Shown here: one piece after another, positions 513 to 6,058 of the stretch
Layout: each line of letters begins with the position of its first letter
How positions within the stretch are numbered: the stretch's first letter is position 1
Position numbers and translations under genes: made by a program
Notes under the pieces: generated by a model
Seen by the model: the letters and a program-made list of their open reading frames with translations, nothing else
What the model was told of the DNA's origin: nothing
Database searches by the model: none
Origin: a virus
Length of the DNA stretch: 6,068 nt
Reading direction: 5' to 3' (one strand)
IMG/VR virus record: IMGVR_UViG_3300020030_000051
Coordinates: 1 to 6,068 of that record

Positions 513-558
513 GTCAACGGCCTAAAGAACTCTACCTCCAAGCGGGCGAGTTACGACT

Positions 559-882
559 TTAGTTCCTTTTCCCTTTTTTTTTCGTCGTGCTTTCATCGCA
601 ATCAAGCTCAAGATTAAACATAAGAACGATGGTATTATCGAAAAACTCGATACTAAAGTCGGGGAGAGTACTGCAGGTACTAATAAGGTCAGAGATTTCC
701 GAGTGACCGACGTAGAGAGAATCGCTAATATCCGAATTCTTTAGATAGGAAGCAACGGGAGAATTCGCAATAGCGTCAAAAGGGATAGAAACAAACTGGC
801 CGTCTTTGACGTGACCTACTTGGACAAGGTCAATTTTAAGAGCCGGGTTAATTCGGCGAATAACAACATGAATCTGTGTCAT
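559..882 (-). CDS. Hypothetical protein, 107 aa from ATG 880-882 (the track's 131-aa version uses a TTG at 954)
   Basis: The ATG lies 11 nt after the stop of the upstream ORF (894-896), which fits the compact layout. The TTG extension would overlap that ORF by 61 nt. The C-terminus is basic (KKKGKRN). No recognisable motifs. Confidence 0.5.
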   Translation of the reverse strand: MTQIHVVIRRINPALKIDLVQVGHVKDGQFVSIPFDAIANSPVASYLKNSDISDSLYVGHSEISDLISTCSTLPDFSIEFFDNTIVLMFNLELDCDESTTKKKGKRN

Positions 883-1300: not shown

Positions 1301-2557
1301 TCACCTTACATAACGACGACTAGATTTCGTAGTGCCAGCGTACCTGCCATCTTTGCCAAAAATTTCCCTACTTTCATCATAATCAACAGGAGTAGGACGT
1401 TTAGTTGTAGCAGCGCCGGCGACAGCAATAGCGCCAACCAAGGCAGTTCTCGCCATGCTATAACCAAAAGCATTTTTGCTAGATCGATTTTGAAACCAGC
1501 GACCCGAAAGATCTTGTTCACCTTCTGAAGCGGCGAGACCCATAAGTTTCTGGTGAATCTGACGACCTGTCATCTTTGTTGTCCTGCCAGTAGGTTTACC
1601 TTTTTCATTAACTTCCGGAACATCGATCACCGAGTCCCAATTAAGATCGAACCACTCGCGAAGATCAGCTAAGTTAACCTTACGTATCTCAGACTCAACA
1701 TCTAAGACATCACCGGAAGCGGCAGATTCATAGGCGGCAGCAAAATCCCGAACAATCTGAGCAGCGTAAACAGCATCAAAGTATTTGTCGTTATACTTCT
1801 TGACCTGATTCGCCTCTTCAACATGTTTCGAATACATGGCAACGTAATCTTGAAACTTATACGTAGCCATAAGATCAGCATATTCAGCATCGGCGGCATG
1901 GATATCAGCCAAAGCACGATTGAGACGGATCAATTCGGAAACATTATCGATATTATGCTCTAAAGACTTCTTCTCTAACTCATCCATCTCCTTTCGCCAG
2001 TCTGCGCTATGAGTGTTGCCTCTCATAAGGTCAGCCTCAGCGTTATCACGATTAGCAGCAGCATCGTTACGGTTAACCGAAGAGCGAGCCATCATATTTT
2101 GCGCAATAGCGGTAGGATCGGTGGCTGCAAAACCGCCAGGAGCAATAGGAGAACTACCCGAAGGGCCGGAGGCGGAAGGCATAGGGGCAGAACCGCCGGA
2201 CATAGTAGCACTCACACCAACACCTGAAGAGCCTAGAACGGCAGCGGGGGTTACACCAGCCTTCGAGTAACGATCAAAGACCTTCGAGGGATCATTGTAG
2301 GCGTTTTCGTAGTCAAATTGTTTCTGCCAATTAGCATAAGAAAGTTCAGATTGCTTCTGCATCTGCTCGAGGGCATATCTTTGCTGGAGAGCCATCTGTT
2401 TTTGCTGAAATCTCCACTGACGACGAGCGTTCATGCCACCAAAAAGTTGGCCTAAAAAACCGTTTATCAAACCGGTAGTGCCAGTAGAAGCAGCGGATTC
2501 GCCAAGGGCGCGACCAAAAGAAGTAGTAGCGGCGGCGGCAGCAATAGGGGCAGGCAT
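1301..2557 (-). CDS. VP2: VP2-like minor capsid / DNA pilot protein (418 aa)
   Basis: Gly/Ala-rich N-terminus, then QKQFDYENAYNDPSKVFDRYSKAGVTPAAVLG, which resembles the conserved N-Y-N-(S/D)-P ... AG-(L/V)-(N/T)-P block of gokushovirus VP2. A Ser/Gly/Pro low-complexity linker and a long helical, coiled-coil-like region follow. Size and position fit a pilot protein. Confidence 0.8.
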   Translation of the reverse strand: MPAPIAAAAATTSFGRALGESAASTGTTGLINGFLGQLFGGMNARRQWRFQQKQMALQQRYALEQMQKQSELSYANWQKQFDYENAYNDPSKVFDRYSKAGVTPAAVLGSSGVGVSATMSGGSAPMPSASGPSGSSPIAPGGFAATDPTAIAQNMMARSSVNRNDAAANRDNAEADLMRGNTHSADWRKEMDELEKKSLEHNIDNVSELIRLNRALADIHAADAEYADLMATYKFQDYVAMYSKHVEEANQVKKYNDKYFDAVYAAQIVRDFAAAYESAASGDVLDVESEIRKVNLADLREWFDLNWDSVIDVPEVNEKGKPTGRTTKMTGRQIHQKLMGLAASEGEQDLSGRWFQNRSSKNAFGYSMARTALVGAIAVAGAATTKRPTPVDYDESREIFGKDGRYAGTTKSSRRYVR

Positions 2558-2558
2558 A

Positions 2559-2750
2559 CTATACGTGAGTTAAATTGTTAGAACGAATGATGTAATCAAC
2601 GCGTACTGTATCAATGTGAACGCCACTACGTTGCATCCTAGCCTGAGCAGCACATGACGACAAGAAAAAGGCGGCCAAAGCAGCAACAATAGAAGAAACG
2701 AGCGTCCAAAAAGCTTTCGACTTGTAAAAAGGGGGCTTAACGTCTGACAT
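2559..2750 (-). CDS. Small putative lipoprotein (63-aa precursor, about 31-aa mature peptide)
   Basis: Lys-containing n-region (K5, K10, K12), hydrophobic core AFWTLVSSIVAALAAFFL, and lipobox L-S-S-C with Cys33 at 2652-2654. The TAG stop is 1 nt from the VP2 ATG (TAGTATG). The leader upstream is AT-rich. Confidence 0.6.
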   Translation of the reverse strand: MSDVKPPFYKSKAFWTLVSSIVAALAAFFLSSCAAQARMQRSGVHIDTVRVDYIIRSNNLTHV

Positions 2751-2776
2751 AAATTTAAAAAATTAAAGAACGATAG

Positions 2777-2853
2777 AAAAATGCGCGGCCTCTCCTGCAG
2801 TCGTTACCAATAACCTTCAGCAATTCACGGACTCTTGCAAAAGGGGTCCGCGC
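2777..2853 (-). other. Structured intergenic element: GC clamp enclosing about 59 nt, followed by a T-run on the minus strand; possible terminator or attenuator
   Basis: gcgcgg (2783-2788) pairs with ccgcgc (2848-2853). A competing 7-bp hairpin (2826-2832 with 2846-2852) shares bases with the clamp. On the minus strand the clamp is followed by ATTTTTC (2776-2782). It lies in the 133-nt gap between the 98-aa ORF and the lipoprotein ORF. Confidence 0.35.
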
Positions 2854-2884
2854 ACGTAGCATATATCGTCAAGTAAAGGATATA

Positions 2885-3181
2885 CTATTTTTCTTCAGAG
2901 TCGGTTGATTTTGAAGCAGGCTTTGACTTATCAAGCTGTGAATCAATAAGTTCCTGACCAACCTCGAGACCGTCGAACTTATCCATACGAGAGAAGGAGT
3001 TGGGATCAAAATCAATCTCAGGGTTAAATTTCTCTCCCTTTTCAAAATCGGAAGGCTCAGCCGTCACATCTGGACGACCAGGGAGAACGTCGACAGAGCC
3101 AGAACCGTCGAGAACGGAAAGAATGCGCTGCCCGCGAGAAATATATGCGGGGGCGTCTTCTAATAACCAATCAAGTGCCAT
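2885..3181 (-). CDS. Highly acidic 98-aa protein; possible scaffolding-type (VP3-like) protein
   Basis: The ATG lies 12 nt after the capsid gene stop. Composition is 13 D and 9 E against 7 K and 4 R (net about -11), with no hydrophobic core. The functional call rests only on position and charge. Confidence 0.55.
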   Translation of the reverse strand: MALDWLLEDAPAYISRGQRILSVLDGSGSVDVLPGRPDVTAEPSDFEKGEKFNPEIDFDPNSFSRMDKFDGLEVGQELIDSQLDKSKPASKSTDSEEK

Positions 3182-3193
3182 AAGACTGTAGTA

Positions 3194-4984
3194 TTAACGA
3201 TTAGACAAACGGGTAGCAAACGTCTTGTTCACTAAATTCTTCTTCTGAACAGCATACGAGAGATTCACAAAAAAGTTATCCTCAACGCGCGAGGCAAACG
3301 CCGAATTCACCTGTCCAATGTTAACAAACAGGTTAGCGTAGTACGTATTATAACTTTGCGACAAGACGCGCTGCTGTACCCAATAAGCATAAAGCGGAAT
3401 CTTCGTGTCGGAAGACTGAAAACGGGAAAGCTGGCCTAAAACTTCATCATAGGATGACCTAAATTCATTGAAGCATGGCTCCTGAGCGACCGTGTCGATG
3501 GAAATCGACGACCCTAAACCAAACTGGAAAGACGGAACATCCTGATAACCAATATCATTATAAATGGGGTTAAAATAGTCAGAACCAGTATAATGCAGAT
3601 AATCGGGGTAAACACCAGCCCAGTAATAGATAGGTCGTATACTCAACATATCAATCATATAACCGGGCTCACGAAAATAGTAAGACTGTCGACGACCTAA
3701 TCGATCGTTAAAAGCAATAGCGCCACCCTGCTGTCCCAGAGGACCATTAACGCTCGGACCGGTGAAGTTATTTTGTCCAGCTTGATTCATAACAATCTGC
3801 ACGTTGACAGTCTGAGAAGCACTAAAGAGAAGCTTCGGGCGATCAACATGTTCAATTTTAGAGGCGAAAAACGTCTCAAGCCAATCACTATAACGGCTGC
3901 CTCCAGCGCCGAGAAGGTCCTTGTATTCCTGAAGACGAGAAGCAATGGCCAACTGCGGAATAGTGTTTACTCCTGTCATCGAAACAGCAGAATTAGAGCC
4001 AGTAGGCAATAAACGACTGTAACGATCGGGATTGGAAGGAACAACCGCCATAGGGTGGGCAACAAGGAAAGCGCCGAGAGACGTAATACGCGAGTCAGCA
4101 GCATCGGTAGAAAGTTGACCAGCGGGGCCAGCCTCTGTCAAAACGCCGTTACCGGGATAAGTTTTTGAAACAGGATACCCATTCGAAGACGCGGCGGCCG
4201 TAGCGCCAAGATCGGAAAAGAGTATCTGAAAGTACAAATTACCACGATTATAGGTGTTATTGTTCGAGGAAACTGCAGCCGGGTAAAACTGACTCTCAAA
4301 AAAGGCATCGAGATATTCGAGATTTCCAAAACGCTGCGTAAAAAAAGAACTCTCTTCAGCAAACTGAAAAAGGTTGGGGTATGAACCCGAAGAATTTGAG
4401 ATAGAATACCAAGACGATGGCCAAGCAAAAGAATAAAGGCCCCACTGTGAATAACTGTAATAGTTGCGGACGATATCCCAATAGGCTAAATAAGTATCCG
4501 CGTTACACCAAGAAACAGGGAAAGAAAGCTGAGCCGCCGAAAGATTAGGAGAGACAGGATGATCTGAAGACGTAACGACTGGAATACCCGCGGGAACGAC
4601 ACGCAGCCAACGAAGCAATGAATTGGAATAAGGCATATTGTTGGTCGTAAAAGTATAAGAGTCTGTCGACGATGCCGTAATAAAATTAAGGCTCAAGTCG
4701 TTCATATCAAACTTACTACTATTCGTCCTCATCTCGGGATGATACAACTGAATCGGCACCCAAAAACGGTGAAGCCGAACAGTATAGGGATTGAACGTCG
4801 GAACAGCAAGAGGGTTACTGCGAACATCAATGCCTTGTTCAATAGAAACACGGTCTCGAGCATTAATAAAATCGATTCGCACCGGATATAAAATACCCGG
4901 CGTACACGTAAAGGCCTTGCTCTCAGGGACATCGTAGCGAGAGTAGCCATTAACGGCGTGAGAAATAAAAGGTTGTTTTCCCAT
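3194..4984 (-). CDS. VP1: Major capsid protein VP1 (Microviridae F-protein family), 596 aa
   Basis: The N-terminal block YSRYDVPESKAFTCTPGILYPVRIDFINARDRV ... RLHRFWVPIQL, the central block ASRLQEYKDLLGAGGSRYSDWLETFFASKIEHVDRPKLL (3827-3955) and EPGYMIDMLSIRPIYYW match conserved blocks of microvirus capsid proteins as I know them. Confidence 0.93.
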   Translation of the reverse strand: MGKQPFISHAVNGYSRYDVPESKAFTCTPGILYPVRIDFINARDRVSIEQGIDVRSNPLAVPTFNPYTVRLHRFWVPIQLYHPEMRTNSSKFDMNDLSLNFITASSTDSYTFTTNNMPYSNSLLRWLRVVPAGIPVVTSSDHPVSPNLSAAQLSFPVSWCNADTYLAYWDIVRNYYSYSQWGLYSFAWPSSWYSISNSSGSYPNLFQFAEESSFFTQRFGNLEYLDAFFESQFYPAAVSSNNNTYNRGNLYFQILFSDLGATAAASSNGYPVSKTYPGNGVLTEAGPAGQLSTDAADSRITSLGAFLVAHPMAVVPSNPDRYSRLLPTGSNSAVSMTGVNTIPQLAIASRLQEYKDLLGAGGSRYSDWLETFFASKIEHVDRPKLLFSASQTVNVQIVMNQAGQNNFTGPSVNGPLGQQGGAIAFNDRLGRRQSYYFREPGYMIDMLSIRPIYYWAGVYPDYLHYTGSDYFNPIYNDIGYQDVPSFQFGLGSSISIDTVAQEPCFNEFRSSYDEVLGQLSRFQSSDTKIPLYAYWVQQRVLSQSYNTYYANLFVNIGQVNSAFASRVEDNFFVNLSYAVQKKNLVNKTFATRLSNR

Positions 4985-4987
4985 AAA

Positions 4988-6058
4988 TTAAATAATTAGT
5001 TGAAGTTTGTAATGATCTTGCCAGAATTGGAGAATATCCAAATCTAACCAAGTAGGAGGGTCAAAATCGGGCATCTCGCGAGAGGAGGCAGAAAAGCGCA
5101 TCATCTGTTTCTGTTCCCACGTGTATGCCTCTCTACGGGATACGGAGGATTTGAGATTGAACCGTTCAACACACAAAGAAACAATACGCTTAACCAAAGG
5201 AGACTTGCTAAAACGTGCGTAAGAATCAGCAGCGATAATCGAACGTGAAATTTCGTCTTCTTGTTTAAGATATCTAAGATAGTATCGAGGGATCGCGTAA
5301 TTGTAATTGATACGCTTCTCAAAATCATAATAAGACCACGTCGAAGTACGAGTAGAAGGACGAGGCATATAACCAAGAAAATCACCAACGCCAGCAGATA
5401 CGAATTTTCGCGTATAACGGCGATGTTGGAGGAGACAAGATAAAGACGTAAGTTTTCCATCTAAAATGACATTTTGATTCAATATTTCTGCAGGATCGAA
5501 ATAAATTTGCTTAGTAACATATTTGACAACGTATCGTGCACGCTTGTGCGTGCCTTTCGCAAGCCAAACGAAGCCTAAATCACGGACAGCTGATCTAATT
5601 TCGTTATAAAGACAGTTGGTGCCAAAAAGAAAGCCATGGAAGTGAAGACGCGGCGCCGATCCTGTTTCAGGGTGAGTGCCAAACTCCTGGAAAAATGCAT
5701 GCTTAAAGGAGTGACCAAGGCGGTGTCGAACTCGCTCATTCCATCGCCGGATGAATCTGGAGGGGTCTCGCAGCGCTTCATTGTAATACTTAGGGGATAT
5801 GGTTATCGTGATAAAAATAGCCTGTTGAGACTCAGCCTTACAGCGAGCAAGCTCGCGTTCCAAGCGAACGAACCAGTTATTGCGCTGACGGCGCAAGCAC
5901 TCTTCACACTTGCCGCATGGAACTAAAAGCCACTGACGAGCGACATCCCAAGGGCGAAGGGCTAAAGCAGACTTAGCAACGTCAGAGCCATTGCGACAAG
6001 GATTCTTCTTGTCAAAATAACGACGATTGCGTATCCATAAAGGAGAAGAGCAGGGCAT
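4988..6058 (-). CDS. VP4: Replication initiation protein VP4 (HUH rolling-circle endonuclease, phiX A-like), 356 aa
   Basis: N-terminal Cys cluster (C3, C21, PCGKCEEC at residues 47-54). Motif I AIFITITI. HUH motif PRLHFHGFLF (H-F-H at 5636-5644). Two-tyrosine catalytic motif RYVVKYVTK (Y176 and Y180 at 5519-5533), comparable to YVAKYVNK in phiX174 A. The TAA stop is 3 nt before the capsid ATG. Confidence 0.93.
   Translation of the reverse strand: MPCSSPLWIRNRRYFDKKNPCRNGSDVAKSALALRPWDVARQWLLVPCGKCEECLRRQRNNWFVRLERELARCKAESQQAIFITITISPKYYNEALRDPSRFIRRWNERVRHRLGHSFKHAFFQEFGTHPETGSAPRLHFHGFLFGTNCLYNEIRSAVRDLGFVWLAKGTHKRARYVVKYVTKQIYFDPAEILNQNVILDGKLTSLSCLLQHRRYTRKFVSAGVGDFLGYMPRPSTRTSTWSYYDFEKRINYNYAIPRYYLRYLKQEDEISRSIIAADSYARFSKSPLVKRIVSLCVERFNLKSSVSRREAYTWEQKQMMRFSASSREMPDFDPPTWLDLDILQFWQDHYKLQLII

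What the first reader, a model, noticed from the sequence alone, without database searches (positions are those of the whole stretch)
2559..2750. Tiny lipobox-bearing ORF coupled to the pilot-protein gene: candidate lysis or exclusion lipoprotein
The 63-aa ORF has a textbook lipoprotein signal: a Lys-containing n-region, an 18-residue hydrophobic core and the lipobox L-S-S-C. Processing would leave a mature acylated peptide of about 31 aa (CAAQARMQRSGVHIDTVRVDYIIRSNNLTHV). Its stop is 1 nt from the VP2 start, so it would be co-expressed late with a structural gene. Microviruses outside the phiX group have no generally established lysis gene. The precursor and mature sizes match those of colicin-release (BRP/Kil-type) lysis lipoproteins, and phages also use small lipoproteins as o-spanins and as receptor-blocking exclusion factors (T5 Llp, Cor). 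No acidic residues follow the Cys, which argues against surface export in a Bacteroidota host.
Basis: partly seen in the sequence, partly recalled or inferred. Interest (0 to 1): 0.75.

Follow-up and report, generated by a model that had tools for sequence, protein, structure and literature searches.

The report
Conserved small lipoprotein gene in gut microviruses
A 63-codon gene just upstream of the DNA-pilot gene of this gut microvirus is real, very strongly conserved and almost certainly makes a small lipid-anchored envelope peptide. What it does (cell lysis, exclusion of other phages, or something else) is still untested.

Summary
Window 2559-2750 (- strand) is a 63-aa ORF with a lipoprotein signal (Lys-containing n-region, uncharged core, L-S-S-C, Cys33). 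Its TAG stop lies 1 nt before the VP2 ATG.

The motif alone is weak evidence: 17% of shuffled windows contain such an ORF. Conservation is what makes it convincing.
- dN/dS is 0.067 at dS of about 1.35, lower than for VP1, VP4 or VP2.
- The Cys is kept in 313 of 318 distinct homologues, with S/G/A at position -1.
- All listed GenBank microviruses with VP1 at least 46% identical to the window's carry the gene.
- It also occurs in microvirus prophages, one of them in an Alistipes sp. (Bacteroidota) assembly.

It matches no known family in Pfam, PHROGs, NCBIfam, PADLOC or PDB.

The signal peptide is itself unusually conserved. It is combined with at least four unrelated mature peptides.

My best reading, at about 0.4 confidence, is an envelope-acting release or lysis lipoprotein that works like a colicin-release protein. 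Superinfection exclusion remains a live rival.

Two results weaken "this is the lysis gene":
- A sister clade has neither this gene nor a recognisable peptidase.
- I found a probable overprinted two-TM membrane protein inside VP4 (5101-5460), which is an alternative lysis candidate.

The parts
2559..2750 (-). Coding sequence of the 63-aa lipoprotein precursor, including the TAG stop at 2559-2561
   Evidence: ORF list and sequence. 403 close homologues. dN/dS is 0.067 with dS of about 1.35 over 66 distinct sequences.
2655..2750 (-). Predicted signal peptide, residues 1-32: n-region MSDVKPPFYKSK followed by an uncharged core AFWTLVSSIVAALAAFFLSS
   Evidence: Meets the PS51257 rule. K12, F14, W15, L17, A24 and F29 are invariant across divergent members. 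dN/dS is 0.03-0.05. AF2 is confident only here, giving a helix with pLDDT 87-90.
2652..2663 (-). Lipobox L30-S31-S32-C33; Cys33 is the predicted acylation and cleavage site
   Evidence: 313 of 318 distinct family sequences keep the Cys, 303 of them in the same register. Position -1 is S/G/A in 305, -2 is mostly S/A/T/V, and -3 is L/T/A/M.
2562..2654 (-). Predicted mature 31-aa peptide CAAQARMQRSGVHIDTVRVDYIIRSNNLTHV, with the conserved core R-x-G-V-H-I-D-T-V-R-V-D-Y-I-I-R
   Evidence: dN/dS of the core (residues 41-56) is 0.033. G43, H45, D47, T48 and V49 are invariant in alignment A4. The structure is not resolved, with pLDDT 50-65.
1301..2557 (-). VP2 DNA-pilot gene; its ATG lies 1 nt after the lipoprotein stop
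   Evidence: PHROG pilot-protein hit at E = 1.5e-9. The spacing is conserved in 62 of 67 relatives.
2765..2862 (-). Conserved structured non-coding element between the 98-aa ORF and the lipoprotein gene. It is a long stem-loop (about 2781-2855) ending in a T/U run (about 2777-2781), a terminator-like element 26 nt upstream of the ATG.
   Evidence: Fold of -37.2 kcal/mol, z = -2.1. It is nearly invariant at the DNA level and shows no codon periodicity. The consensus structure has 25 pairs, and 2 pairs show compensatory changes. This explains the spurious '100-aa' gene calls seen.
5101..5460 (-). Context, and a rival or partner: a probable overprinted 119-aa membrane protein in the +1 frame of VP4
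   Evidence: Synonymous-site entropy of VP4 falls from 0.68 to 0.31 over the overlap (p = 4e-22). No such dip occurs in VP1 or VP2. The ORF is open in all 48 relatives. Homologues are detectable throughout the window's clade.

Best explanation
This is a real, essential-looking microvirus gene for a small bacterial-type lipoprotein.

Shown: it is protein-coding under strong purifying selection, its lipobox is conserved, and it occurs in phages and prophages of Bacteroidota.

Inferred pathway: it is transcribed with VP2 downstream of a leaky terminator-like hairpin. The precursor is inserted through Sec, diacylglyceryl-modified on Cys33 by Lgt and cut by signal peptidase II. That leaves a 31-aa lipopeptide facing the periplasm (it has no acidic surface-export signal) and a 32-aa, unusually conserved signal peptide in the inner membrane.

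Inferred function: it acts on the host envelope to release progeny. It would be a lysis or release factor working like a colicin-release (BRP/Kil) lipoprotein, in which both the lipopeptide and the signal peptide contribute. It could act alone, or together with the overprinted membrane protein encoded inside VP4.
For: Real gene:
- dN/dS is 0.067, against 0.105 for VP1, 0.103 for VP4 and 0.243 for VP2, with synonymous sites saturating.

Lipoprotein:
- It meets the PS51257 rule. The Cys is kept in 313 of 318 sequences, and positions -1 to -3 vary only within residues allowed in a lipobox.

Fixed in its clade:
- It is present in every listed GenBank relative with VP1 at least 46% identical.
- 74 of 80 IMG/VR relatives gave a tblastn hit; four of the other six carry the type-2 form and two are incomplete contigs.

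Acts on the host rather than on the capsid:
- Homologues 62-75% identical occur in a second microvirus lineage whose VP1 is only about 21% identical and where the gene sits at a different genome position.

Host has the Lgt/Lsp pathway:
- Integrated prophages lie on an Alistipes sp. contig and on large metagenomic contigs with similar flanking genes.
- No gene in the window has a Shine-Dalgarno sequence upstream.

No other recognisable lysis enzyme:
- No window ORF hits a peptidase or lysozyme. Bacteroides phage phiHBP1, by contrast, carries an M15 peptidase and lacks this gene.

Signal peptide conserved beyond what targeting needs, and modular:
- The same signal peptide is joined to at least 4 different mature parts. 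BRP signal peptides are themselves lethal (PMC2896534, refs 47-48).

Expression context:
- A terminator-like hairpin lies directly upstream. The ColE7 lysis gene is likewise placed after terminator T1 (PMC2896534).
Against: - No experiment and no homology links the gene to lysis.
- The sister clade (VP1 about 40% identical, L097-L100) has neither this gene nor any Pfam-recognisable lysis enzyme. Lysis in these phages can therefore be achieved without it.
- A probable overprinted two-TM protein in VP4 is a phiX174-E-style alternative candidate.
- About 30 homologue clusters lack the stop codon. They run on for about 130 codons into a basic J-like tail, which is hard to reconcile with a precise small lipopeptide.
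- The very strong conservation of the mature core suggests a specific protein target rather than general membrane damage.
- SignalP/LipoP could not be run.
Confidence: 0.4

Rival explanations
1. It is a superinfection-exclusion or receptor-masking lipoprotein of the T5 Llp / Cor type. The periplasm-facing lipopeptide would bind an outer-membrane receptor or its energising partner. That would block entry of further phages and stop progeny being inactivated on cell debris or vesicles.
For: - It is a small periplasm-facing lipoprotein with a highly conserved, strand-prone core, which suggests binding to a specific protein.
- It occurs in prophages, where exclusion would benefit the lysogen.
- The alternative mature-part types could correspond to different receptors.
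- The gene is absent from a sister clade, as expected of an accessory gene.
Against: - It is fixed in its whole clade and is more constrained than the capsid. Exclusion genes are usually dispensable and patchy.
- The mature-part type is uncoupled from VP1 relatedness. The closest GenBank VP1 (74.9% identical) carries type 2, while lineages with about 21% VP1 identity share type 1. Llp types track the receptor-binding protein.
- There is no homology to Llp or Cor.
- The mature part is half the size of Llp.
Confidence: 0.25
2. The conserved N-terminal hydrophobic segment is the real effector. Either the protein is an uncleaved signal-anchored peptide that inhibits a membrane enzyme, like the phiX174 E transmembrane domain on MraY, or the precursor jams the lipoprotein maturation and sorting pathway (Lgt/LspA/Lol).
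For: - The signal-peptide region has several invariant residues (K12, F14, W15, L17, A24, F29) and a dN/dS of 0.03-0.05.
- It is combined with at least four unrelated C-terminal parts and tolerates about 130-aa C-terminal extensions.
Against: - The type-1 mature core is at least as conserved (dN/dS 0.033).
- That core also occurs behind a different signal peptide (P0260).
- The pattern of variation at positions -3 to -1 is what signal peptidase II recognition predicts.
Confidence: 0.1
3. It is a chance ORF, or a by-product of a conserved DNA element, and not a translated gene.
For: A lipobox-bearing ORF arises by chance in 17% of shuffled windows. A conserved non-coding hairpin lies directly upstream.
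Against: Synonymous sites vary freely (pS 0.63) while amino acids do not (pN 0.085). The ORF is intact in hundreds of genomes and in two distinct lineages at different genome positions.
Confidence: 0.01

Closest known systems
Colicin/bacteriocin release proteins (BRP, Kil, Cel; Pfam Lysis_col)
   Same: Both are tiny lipoprotein precursors giving a mature lipopeptide of about 30 aa (28 aa in BRP, 31 here). Expression is lethal if excessive and is placed behind a terminator. The signal peptide is functionally important in BRP, and here it is unusually conserved (PMC2896534).
   Different: There is no sequence similarity: Pfam gives no hit at E <= 1. The signal peptide is 32 aa rather than 19. 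The gene is carried by a ssDNA phage or prophage of Bacteroidota, not by an SOS-controlled enterobacterial plasmid. Activation of a phospholipase is untested.
T5 Llp and Cor superinfection-exclusion lipoproteins
   Same: Both are small phage-encoded, periplasm-facing lipoproteins. In the window's lineage the gene sits next to a gene involved in entry (VP2).
   Different: There is no homology. The mature part is about half as long. The type is not linked to the capsid type. The gene is fixed and highly constrained rather than accessory.
o-spanins (lambda Rz1) and u-spanins (T1 gp11)
   Same: All are phage lipoproteins used at the last step of Gram-negative lysis.
   Different: There is no i-spanin partner, no holin-endolysin cassette, no Pro-rich mature domain, no intermolecular Cys and no C-terminal TM segment.
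phiX174 E and other single-gene lysis proteins (Sgl)
   Same: Both are small membrane-targeted proteins of a minimal phage with no muralytic enzyme, and both have a conserved N-terminal hydrophobic segment.
   Different: E is overprinted and is not a lipoprotein. None of the Sgl papers read here mentions a lipoprotein. This gene is free-standing and has a lipobox.

Membership tests
Bacterial lipoprotein (signal peptidase II substrate, PROSITE PS51257) | Positively charged n-region, uncharged h-region, and a lipobox [LVI][ASTVI][GAS]C with the Cys at residue 15-35 | tested here: met
   K5, K10 and K12; a 20-residue uncharged stretch; L-S-S-C with the Cys at 33.
Bacterial lipoprotein (signal peptidase II substrate, PROSITE PS51257) | Cys and small -1 residue conserved among homologues | tested here: met
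   313 of 318 sequences keep the Cys; the five exceptions look like fragments or frameshifted sequences. Position -1 is S/G/A in 305.
Bacterial lipoprotein (signal peptidase II substrate, PROSITE PS51257) | Acylation and globomycin-sensitive cleavage; a SignalP/LipoP call | not testable with these tools
   No predictor or experiment was available.
Colicin lysis / BRP family (Pfam Lysis_col) | Sequence homology to the family profile | tested here: not met
   No Pfam or NCBIfam hit at E <= 1.
Colicin lysis / BRP family (Pfam Lysis_col) | Mature lipopeptide of about 28-33 aa | tested here: met
   31 aa here, against 28 aa in BRP (PMC2896534).
Colicin lysis / BRP family (Pfam Lysis_col) | Causes quasi-lysis through outer-membrane phospholipase A; stable, toxic signal peptide | not testable with these tools
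   The only indirect hint is the unusually conserved signal peptide.
Spanin (o-spanin Rz1 type) | Paired with, or embedded in, an i-spanin gene within a holin-endolysin cassette | tested here: not met
   The neighbours are a non-coding hairpin and VP2. No window ORF hits a holin, endolysin or i-spanin family.
Spanin (o-spanin Rz1 type) | Pro-rich mature domain with a Cys for intermolecular disulfides | tested here: not met
   The mature part has no Pro and no Cys other than the lipidated Cys33.
Llp/Cor exclusion lipoproteins | Sequence homology | tested here: not met
   Pfam and PADLOC give nothing significant, and the best PHROGs match is E = 0.18 to a family of unknown function.
Llp/Cor exclusion lipoproteins | Type co-varies with the phage's receptor-binding protein | tested here: not met
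   Type 1 and type 2 are mixed among close VP1 relatives, and type 1 is shared by lineages with about 21% VP1 identity. Caveat: the receptor-binding determinant of these phages is unknown.
Llp/Cor exclusion lipoproteins | Blocks adsorption or DNA entry when expressed | not testable with these tools
   Needs an experiment.
phiX174 E-type Sgl | Overprinted gene; uncleaved N-terminal TM domain inhibiting MraY | tested here: not met
   The ORF is free-standing and has a conserved lipobox. Its target is not testable here.

The most novel reading that the evidence does not exclude
This is the first lipoprotein-type single-gene lysis protein of a ssDNA phage, operating in Bacteroidota. Its conserved signal peptide plus lipobox would be part of the effector, either BRP-like or by jamming lipoprotein maturation and sorting. 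Its interchangeable mature peptides would target a conserved periplasmic component. That would give microviruses outside the phiX174 group an identifiable lysis gene.
Probability: 0.3. Interest if true: 0.8.

Novelty: new variant of a known kind. Interest (0 to 1): 0.6.

Why it matters
How microviruses outside the phiX174 group leave their hosts is largely unknown. In the literature read here, phiX174 E is the only elucidated mechanism, and M15 peptidases are only proposed for some lineages (PMC3394797, PMC9239249).

This orphan lipoprotein is fixed in a widespread clade of mammalian, reptile and bird gut microviruses. It is more constrained than the capsid and has moved between distant microvirus lineages. 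It is therefore a concrete, cheaply testable candidate for lysis or for exclusion in Bacteroidota, a phylum in which phage lysis and lipoprotein sorting are both poorly understood.

If it is lytic, its target would be a new "protein antibiotic" target in gut anaerobes.

Tried and rejected
- **Family searches.** Pfam, PHROGs, NCBIfam, PADLOC and PDB sequence searches found no family.
- **Structure prediction.** AF2 with a 24-sequence alignment gave one long helix, confident only in the signal peptide, so no fold search was attempted.
- **Prophage search by VP1.** Two genome-contig scans with VP1 alignments found nothing. The host link came instead from the protein search.
- **Lineage-B genomes.** A viral-contig scan for lineage-B genomes returned only one locus. 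I therefore dropped a genome-wide overlap analysis of that lineage.
- **The "100-aa form".** This N-terminally extended form seen in many database entries is rejected as a gene-calling artefact. The extension is a conserved hairpin with no codon periodicity, and it is interrupted by a stop in the window.
- **Peptidase exclusivity.** Mutual exclusivity with M15 peptidases could not be shown. phiHBP1 has the peptidase and lacks the lipoprotein, but the lipoprotein-less sister clade has no peptidase either.
- **ORF length of the VP4-embedded ORF.** Length alone is not significant, because 33% of synonymous shuffles reach it. The synonymous-site test is what supports that ORF.
- **Rfam.** No family matched.
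- **TonB-box lead.** From memory only, the core D-T-V-R-V-D-Y loosely resembles a TonB box. I did not test this and do not rely on it.

Full report
**What the window is.** The 6068-nt window is an essentially complete microvirus genome with all genes on the - strand:
- Rep/VP4 at 4988-6058
- VP1 at 3194-4984
- an acidic 98-aa ORF at 2885-3181
- the 63-aa ORF at 2559-2750
- VP2 at 1301-2557
- two ORFs of 106 and 131 aa

The nearest GenBank genomes are unclassified Microviridae from pig, musk-deer, rodent, lemur and tortoise faeces, about 70-75% identical in DNA. No gene has a Shine-Dalgarno sequence upstream.

**The observation.** The motif on its own is not strong evidence. It is the only ORF of at least 40 aa in the window that satisfies the PS51257-type rule, but 17% of dinucleotide shuffles also produce one.

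**It is a real gene under strong constraint.**
- A protein search found 403 homologues; the best 120 are at least 84% identical.
- Across 66 distinct 63-codon sequences from the window and IMG/VR relatives, synonymous sites are close to saturation (pS 0.63, dS about 1.35). Amino-acid changes are rare (pN 0.085), giving dN/dS = 0.067.
- In the same genomes VP1 gives 0.105, VP4 0.103, VP2 0.243 and the 98-aa ORF 0.081. This small ORF is therefore among the most constrained genes of the phage.
- By region, dN/dS is 0.03 for the n-region, 0.05 for the hydrophobic core plus lipobox, and 0.03 for the mature core at residues 41-56.

**The lipobox behaves like a lipobox.**
- In 318 distinct family sequences, 313 keep the Cys, and 303 keep it at the same distance from the conserved F-W. 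The five exceptions look like fragments or frameshifted sequences.
- Position -1 is S, G or A in 305 sequences. Position -2 is mostly S/A/T/V. Position -3 is L in 71%, otherwise T/A/M.
- SignalP/LipoP could not be run, and lipidation is untested.
- One homologue already carries the automatic NCBI name "MAG TPA: lipoprotein [Microviridae sp.]".
- I found no paper describing such a gene in microviruses.

**Distribution.**
- Of 80 IMG/VR relatives with VP1 68-84% identical, 74 have a detectable homologue. Four of the rest carry, in the same slot, a 65-aa ORF with the same signal peptide and a different mature peptide, "type 2"...FFLESC|TARHYVVQSASSIKSGDTTRTTITYEQIGNFKRP. The other two are incomplete contigs.
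- Every GenBank microvirus listed with VP1 at least 46% identical to the window's appears in the type-1 or type-2 hit lists. This includes Tortoise microvirus 7, where the ORF is unannotated.
- A sister clade with VP1 about 40% identical (L097-L100) has no such ORF and no Pfam-recognisable peptidase.
- Homologues 62-75% identical also occur in a second microvirus lineage whose VP1 is only about 21% identical. Examples are Dulem virus 219 and bajarodmic virus 807. There the gene lies between VP2 and Rep, not upstream of VP2.
- Adjacency to VP2 is therefore a feature of one lineage (62 of 67 with a 1-nt spacer), not of the gene family.

**Host.** A profile search brought up a 62-aa member annotated as an Alistipes sp. 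protein on a 209.8-kb NCBI contig. That locus is an integrated microvirus prophage (lipoprotein, Rep, VP1, VP2) flanked by host genes: His biosynthesis and ZnuA/ABC on one side, HIT and RelA/SpoT on the other. Similar prophages lie on 51-kb and 197-kb metagenomic contigs with similar flanking genes. Together with the lack of Shine-Dalgarno sequences, this supports a Bacteroidota host, which has the Lgt/Lsp lipoprotein pathway. For the window's own lineage the host is inferred, not shown: two genome scans with VP1 found no prophage.

**Modularity.**
- The signal-peptide region is conserved far beyond what targeting requires. K12, F14, W15, L17, A24 and F29 are invariant across divergent members.
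- The same signal peptide is joined to at least four unrelated mature peptides: types 1 and 2, plus P0239 and P0240. The type-1 mature core also occurs behind a different signal peptide (P0260).
- The mature-part type is not linked to capsid relatedness. The closest GenBank VP1 (PQ006896, 74.9%) carries type 2 while the window carries type 1.
- The exhaustive profile search against 1.84 billion representatives found 74 hits. Nearly all are short ORFs or the long forms described next. Four long, repetitive proteins with multiple short matches look spurious. Every genomic context I checked is microviral.

**An unexplained variant.** About 30 of those clusters are ORFs of 170-225 aa. They begin with the lipoprotein and lack its stop codon. 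They then run through about 110 non-conserved codons, which overlap another-frame gene, and end in a conserved basic tail...RRGGRRGKGRPKGTKSIPLGGSHL. Whether the long product is made is unknown.

**Expression context.** Directly upstream lies a 98-nt element (2765-2862) that is almost invariant at the DNA level and shows no codon periodicity. It folds into a long stem-loop followed by a U-run, and two of its pairs show compensatory changes. It probably acts as a leaky terminator or another cis element. It also accounts for the spurious "100-aa" gene calls. By analogy only, the ColE7 lysis gene is likewise placed after a terminator (PMC2896534).

**Comparison with known families.** No hit was found in Pfam (including Lysis_col), PHROGs, NCBIfam, PADLOC or PDB. 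AF2 was uninformative for the mature part. The gene is therefore not a member of the BRP, Llp/Cor or spanin families. In size and architecture it is closest to BRPs, which have a 47-aa precursor and a 28-aa mature lipopeptide, activate outer-membrane phospholipase A, and have a signal peptide that is itself lethal (PMC2896534).

**A competing lysis candidate.** Inside VP4, in the +1 frame, a 119-aa ORF (5101-5460) with two hydrophobic segments is open in all 48 relatives examined.
- Its length alone is not significant, because 33% of synonymous shuffles reach it.
- However, synonymous-site entropy of VP4 drops from 0.68 to 0.31 over the overlap (p = 4e-22).
- VP1 and VP2 show no such dip, and pN/pS in the +1 frame falls from 2.05 to 0.77.
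- Homologues are detectable throughout the window's clade but not in the second lineage that also carries the lipoprotein.

This is a phiX174-E-like situation. It means the lipoprotein is not the only envelope-directed candidate.

**Weighing the readings.**
- *For an envelope-acting release or lysis role:* the gene is fixed and extremely constrained in a minimal genome; it has transferred between lineages with very different capsids, so its function is directed at the host; there is no lysis enzyme; the signal peptide is conserved; and expression appears attenuated.
- *Against that role:* the sister clade manages without it; the overprinted ORF is an alternative; the read-through forms are hard to explain; and the sharply conserved core suggests a specific binding partner.
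- *Exclusion:* this remains plausible, given that the protein is periplasm-facing, small, prophage-borne and comes in alternative types. It is weakened by the gene's fixation and by the lack of linkage to capsid type.
- *Probabilities:* about 0.4 for a lysis or release function, 0.25 for exclusion, 0.1 for a mechanism in which the signal peptide is the effector. The remainder goes to functions not considered here.

Noticed in passing
window 5101-5460 (- strand), inside VP4: A probable overprinted 119-aa gene in the +1 frame of VP4, with two hydrophobic segments and a conserved C-terminal PPYPVE. Synonymous variation of VP4 collapses over the overlap (0.31 against 0.68, p = 4e-22). The ORF is open in all 48 relatives. 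It is a candidate E-like or holin-like protein.
   Followed up: partly
window 2765-2862 (- strand): A 98-nt intergenic element conserved almost to the base. It forms a long stem-loop followed by a U-run, with two compensatory pairs. It may be a terminator or attenuator, or possibly a complementary-strand origin. It reads as a 35-aa ORF and is fused to the lipoprotein in many database gene calls. Some relatives (L003, L018, L019, L033, L061, L070) carry an extra structured insert of about 100 nt after it.
   Followed up: partly
window 522-596 (- strand) and 486-512: A 24-aa basic ORF, MKARRKKKGKGTKVVTRPLGGRVL, overlaps the 3' end of the 131-aa ORF. It is probably a J-like DNA-binding peptide. 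It is followed by the strongest terminator-like hairpin in the window (11-bp stem plus T8).
   Followed up: no
L095 1512-2114; L096 7001-7585 (and about 30 clusters): In a related lineage the lipoprotein ORF has no stop codon. It continues for about 130 codons across another-frame gene and ends in the J-like basic tail. It is unclear whether this long product is made.
   Followed up: partly
L091 about 9600-15200; L093; L096: Microvirus prophages lie next to ZnuA/ABC-transporter genes (L091, L096) and next to HTH_3, HIT and RelA/SpoT genes (L091, L093). L091 is from an Alistipes sp. assembly; L093 and L096 are large metagenomic contigs.
   Followed up: partly
L043 73-282: One relative (a 5523-nt contig) has a 69-aa GroES-like ORF in place of the lipoprotein, upstream of an unusually long (472-aa) VP2. 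This could be a chimera or a gene replacement.
   Followed up: no
L097-L100 (GenBank PQ007228, PQ006994, MZ089787, PQ006933): The sister clade (VP1 about 40% identical) lacks the lipoprotein and has no Pfam-recognisable lysis enzyme. It carries three unassigned ORFs of 103-135 aa between VP2 and Rep.
   Followed up: partly
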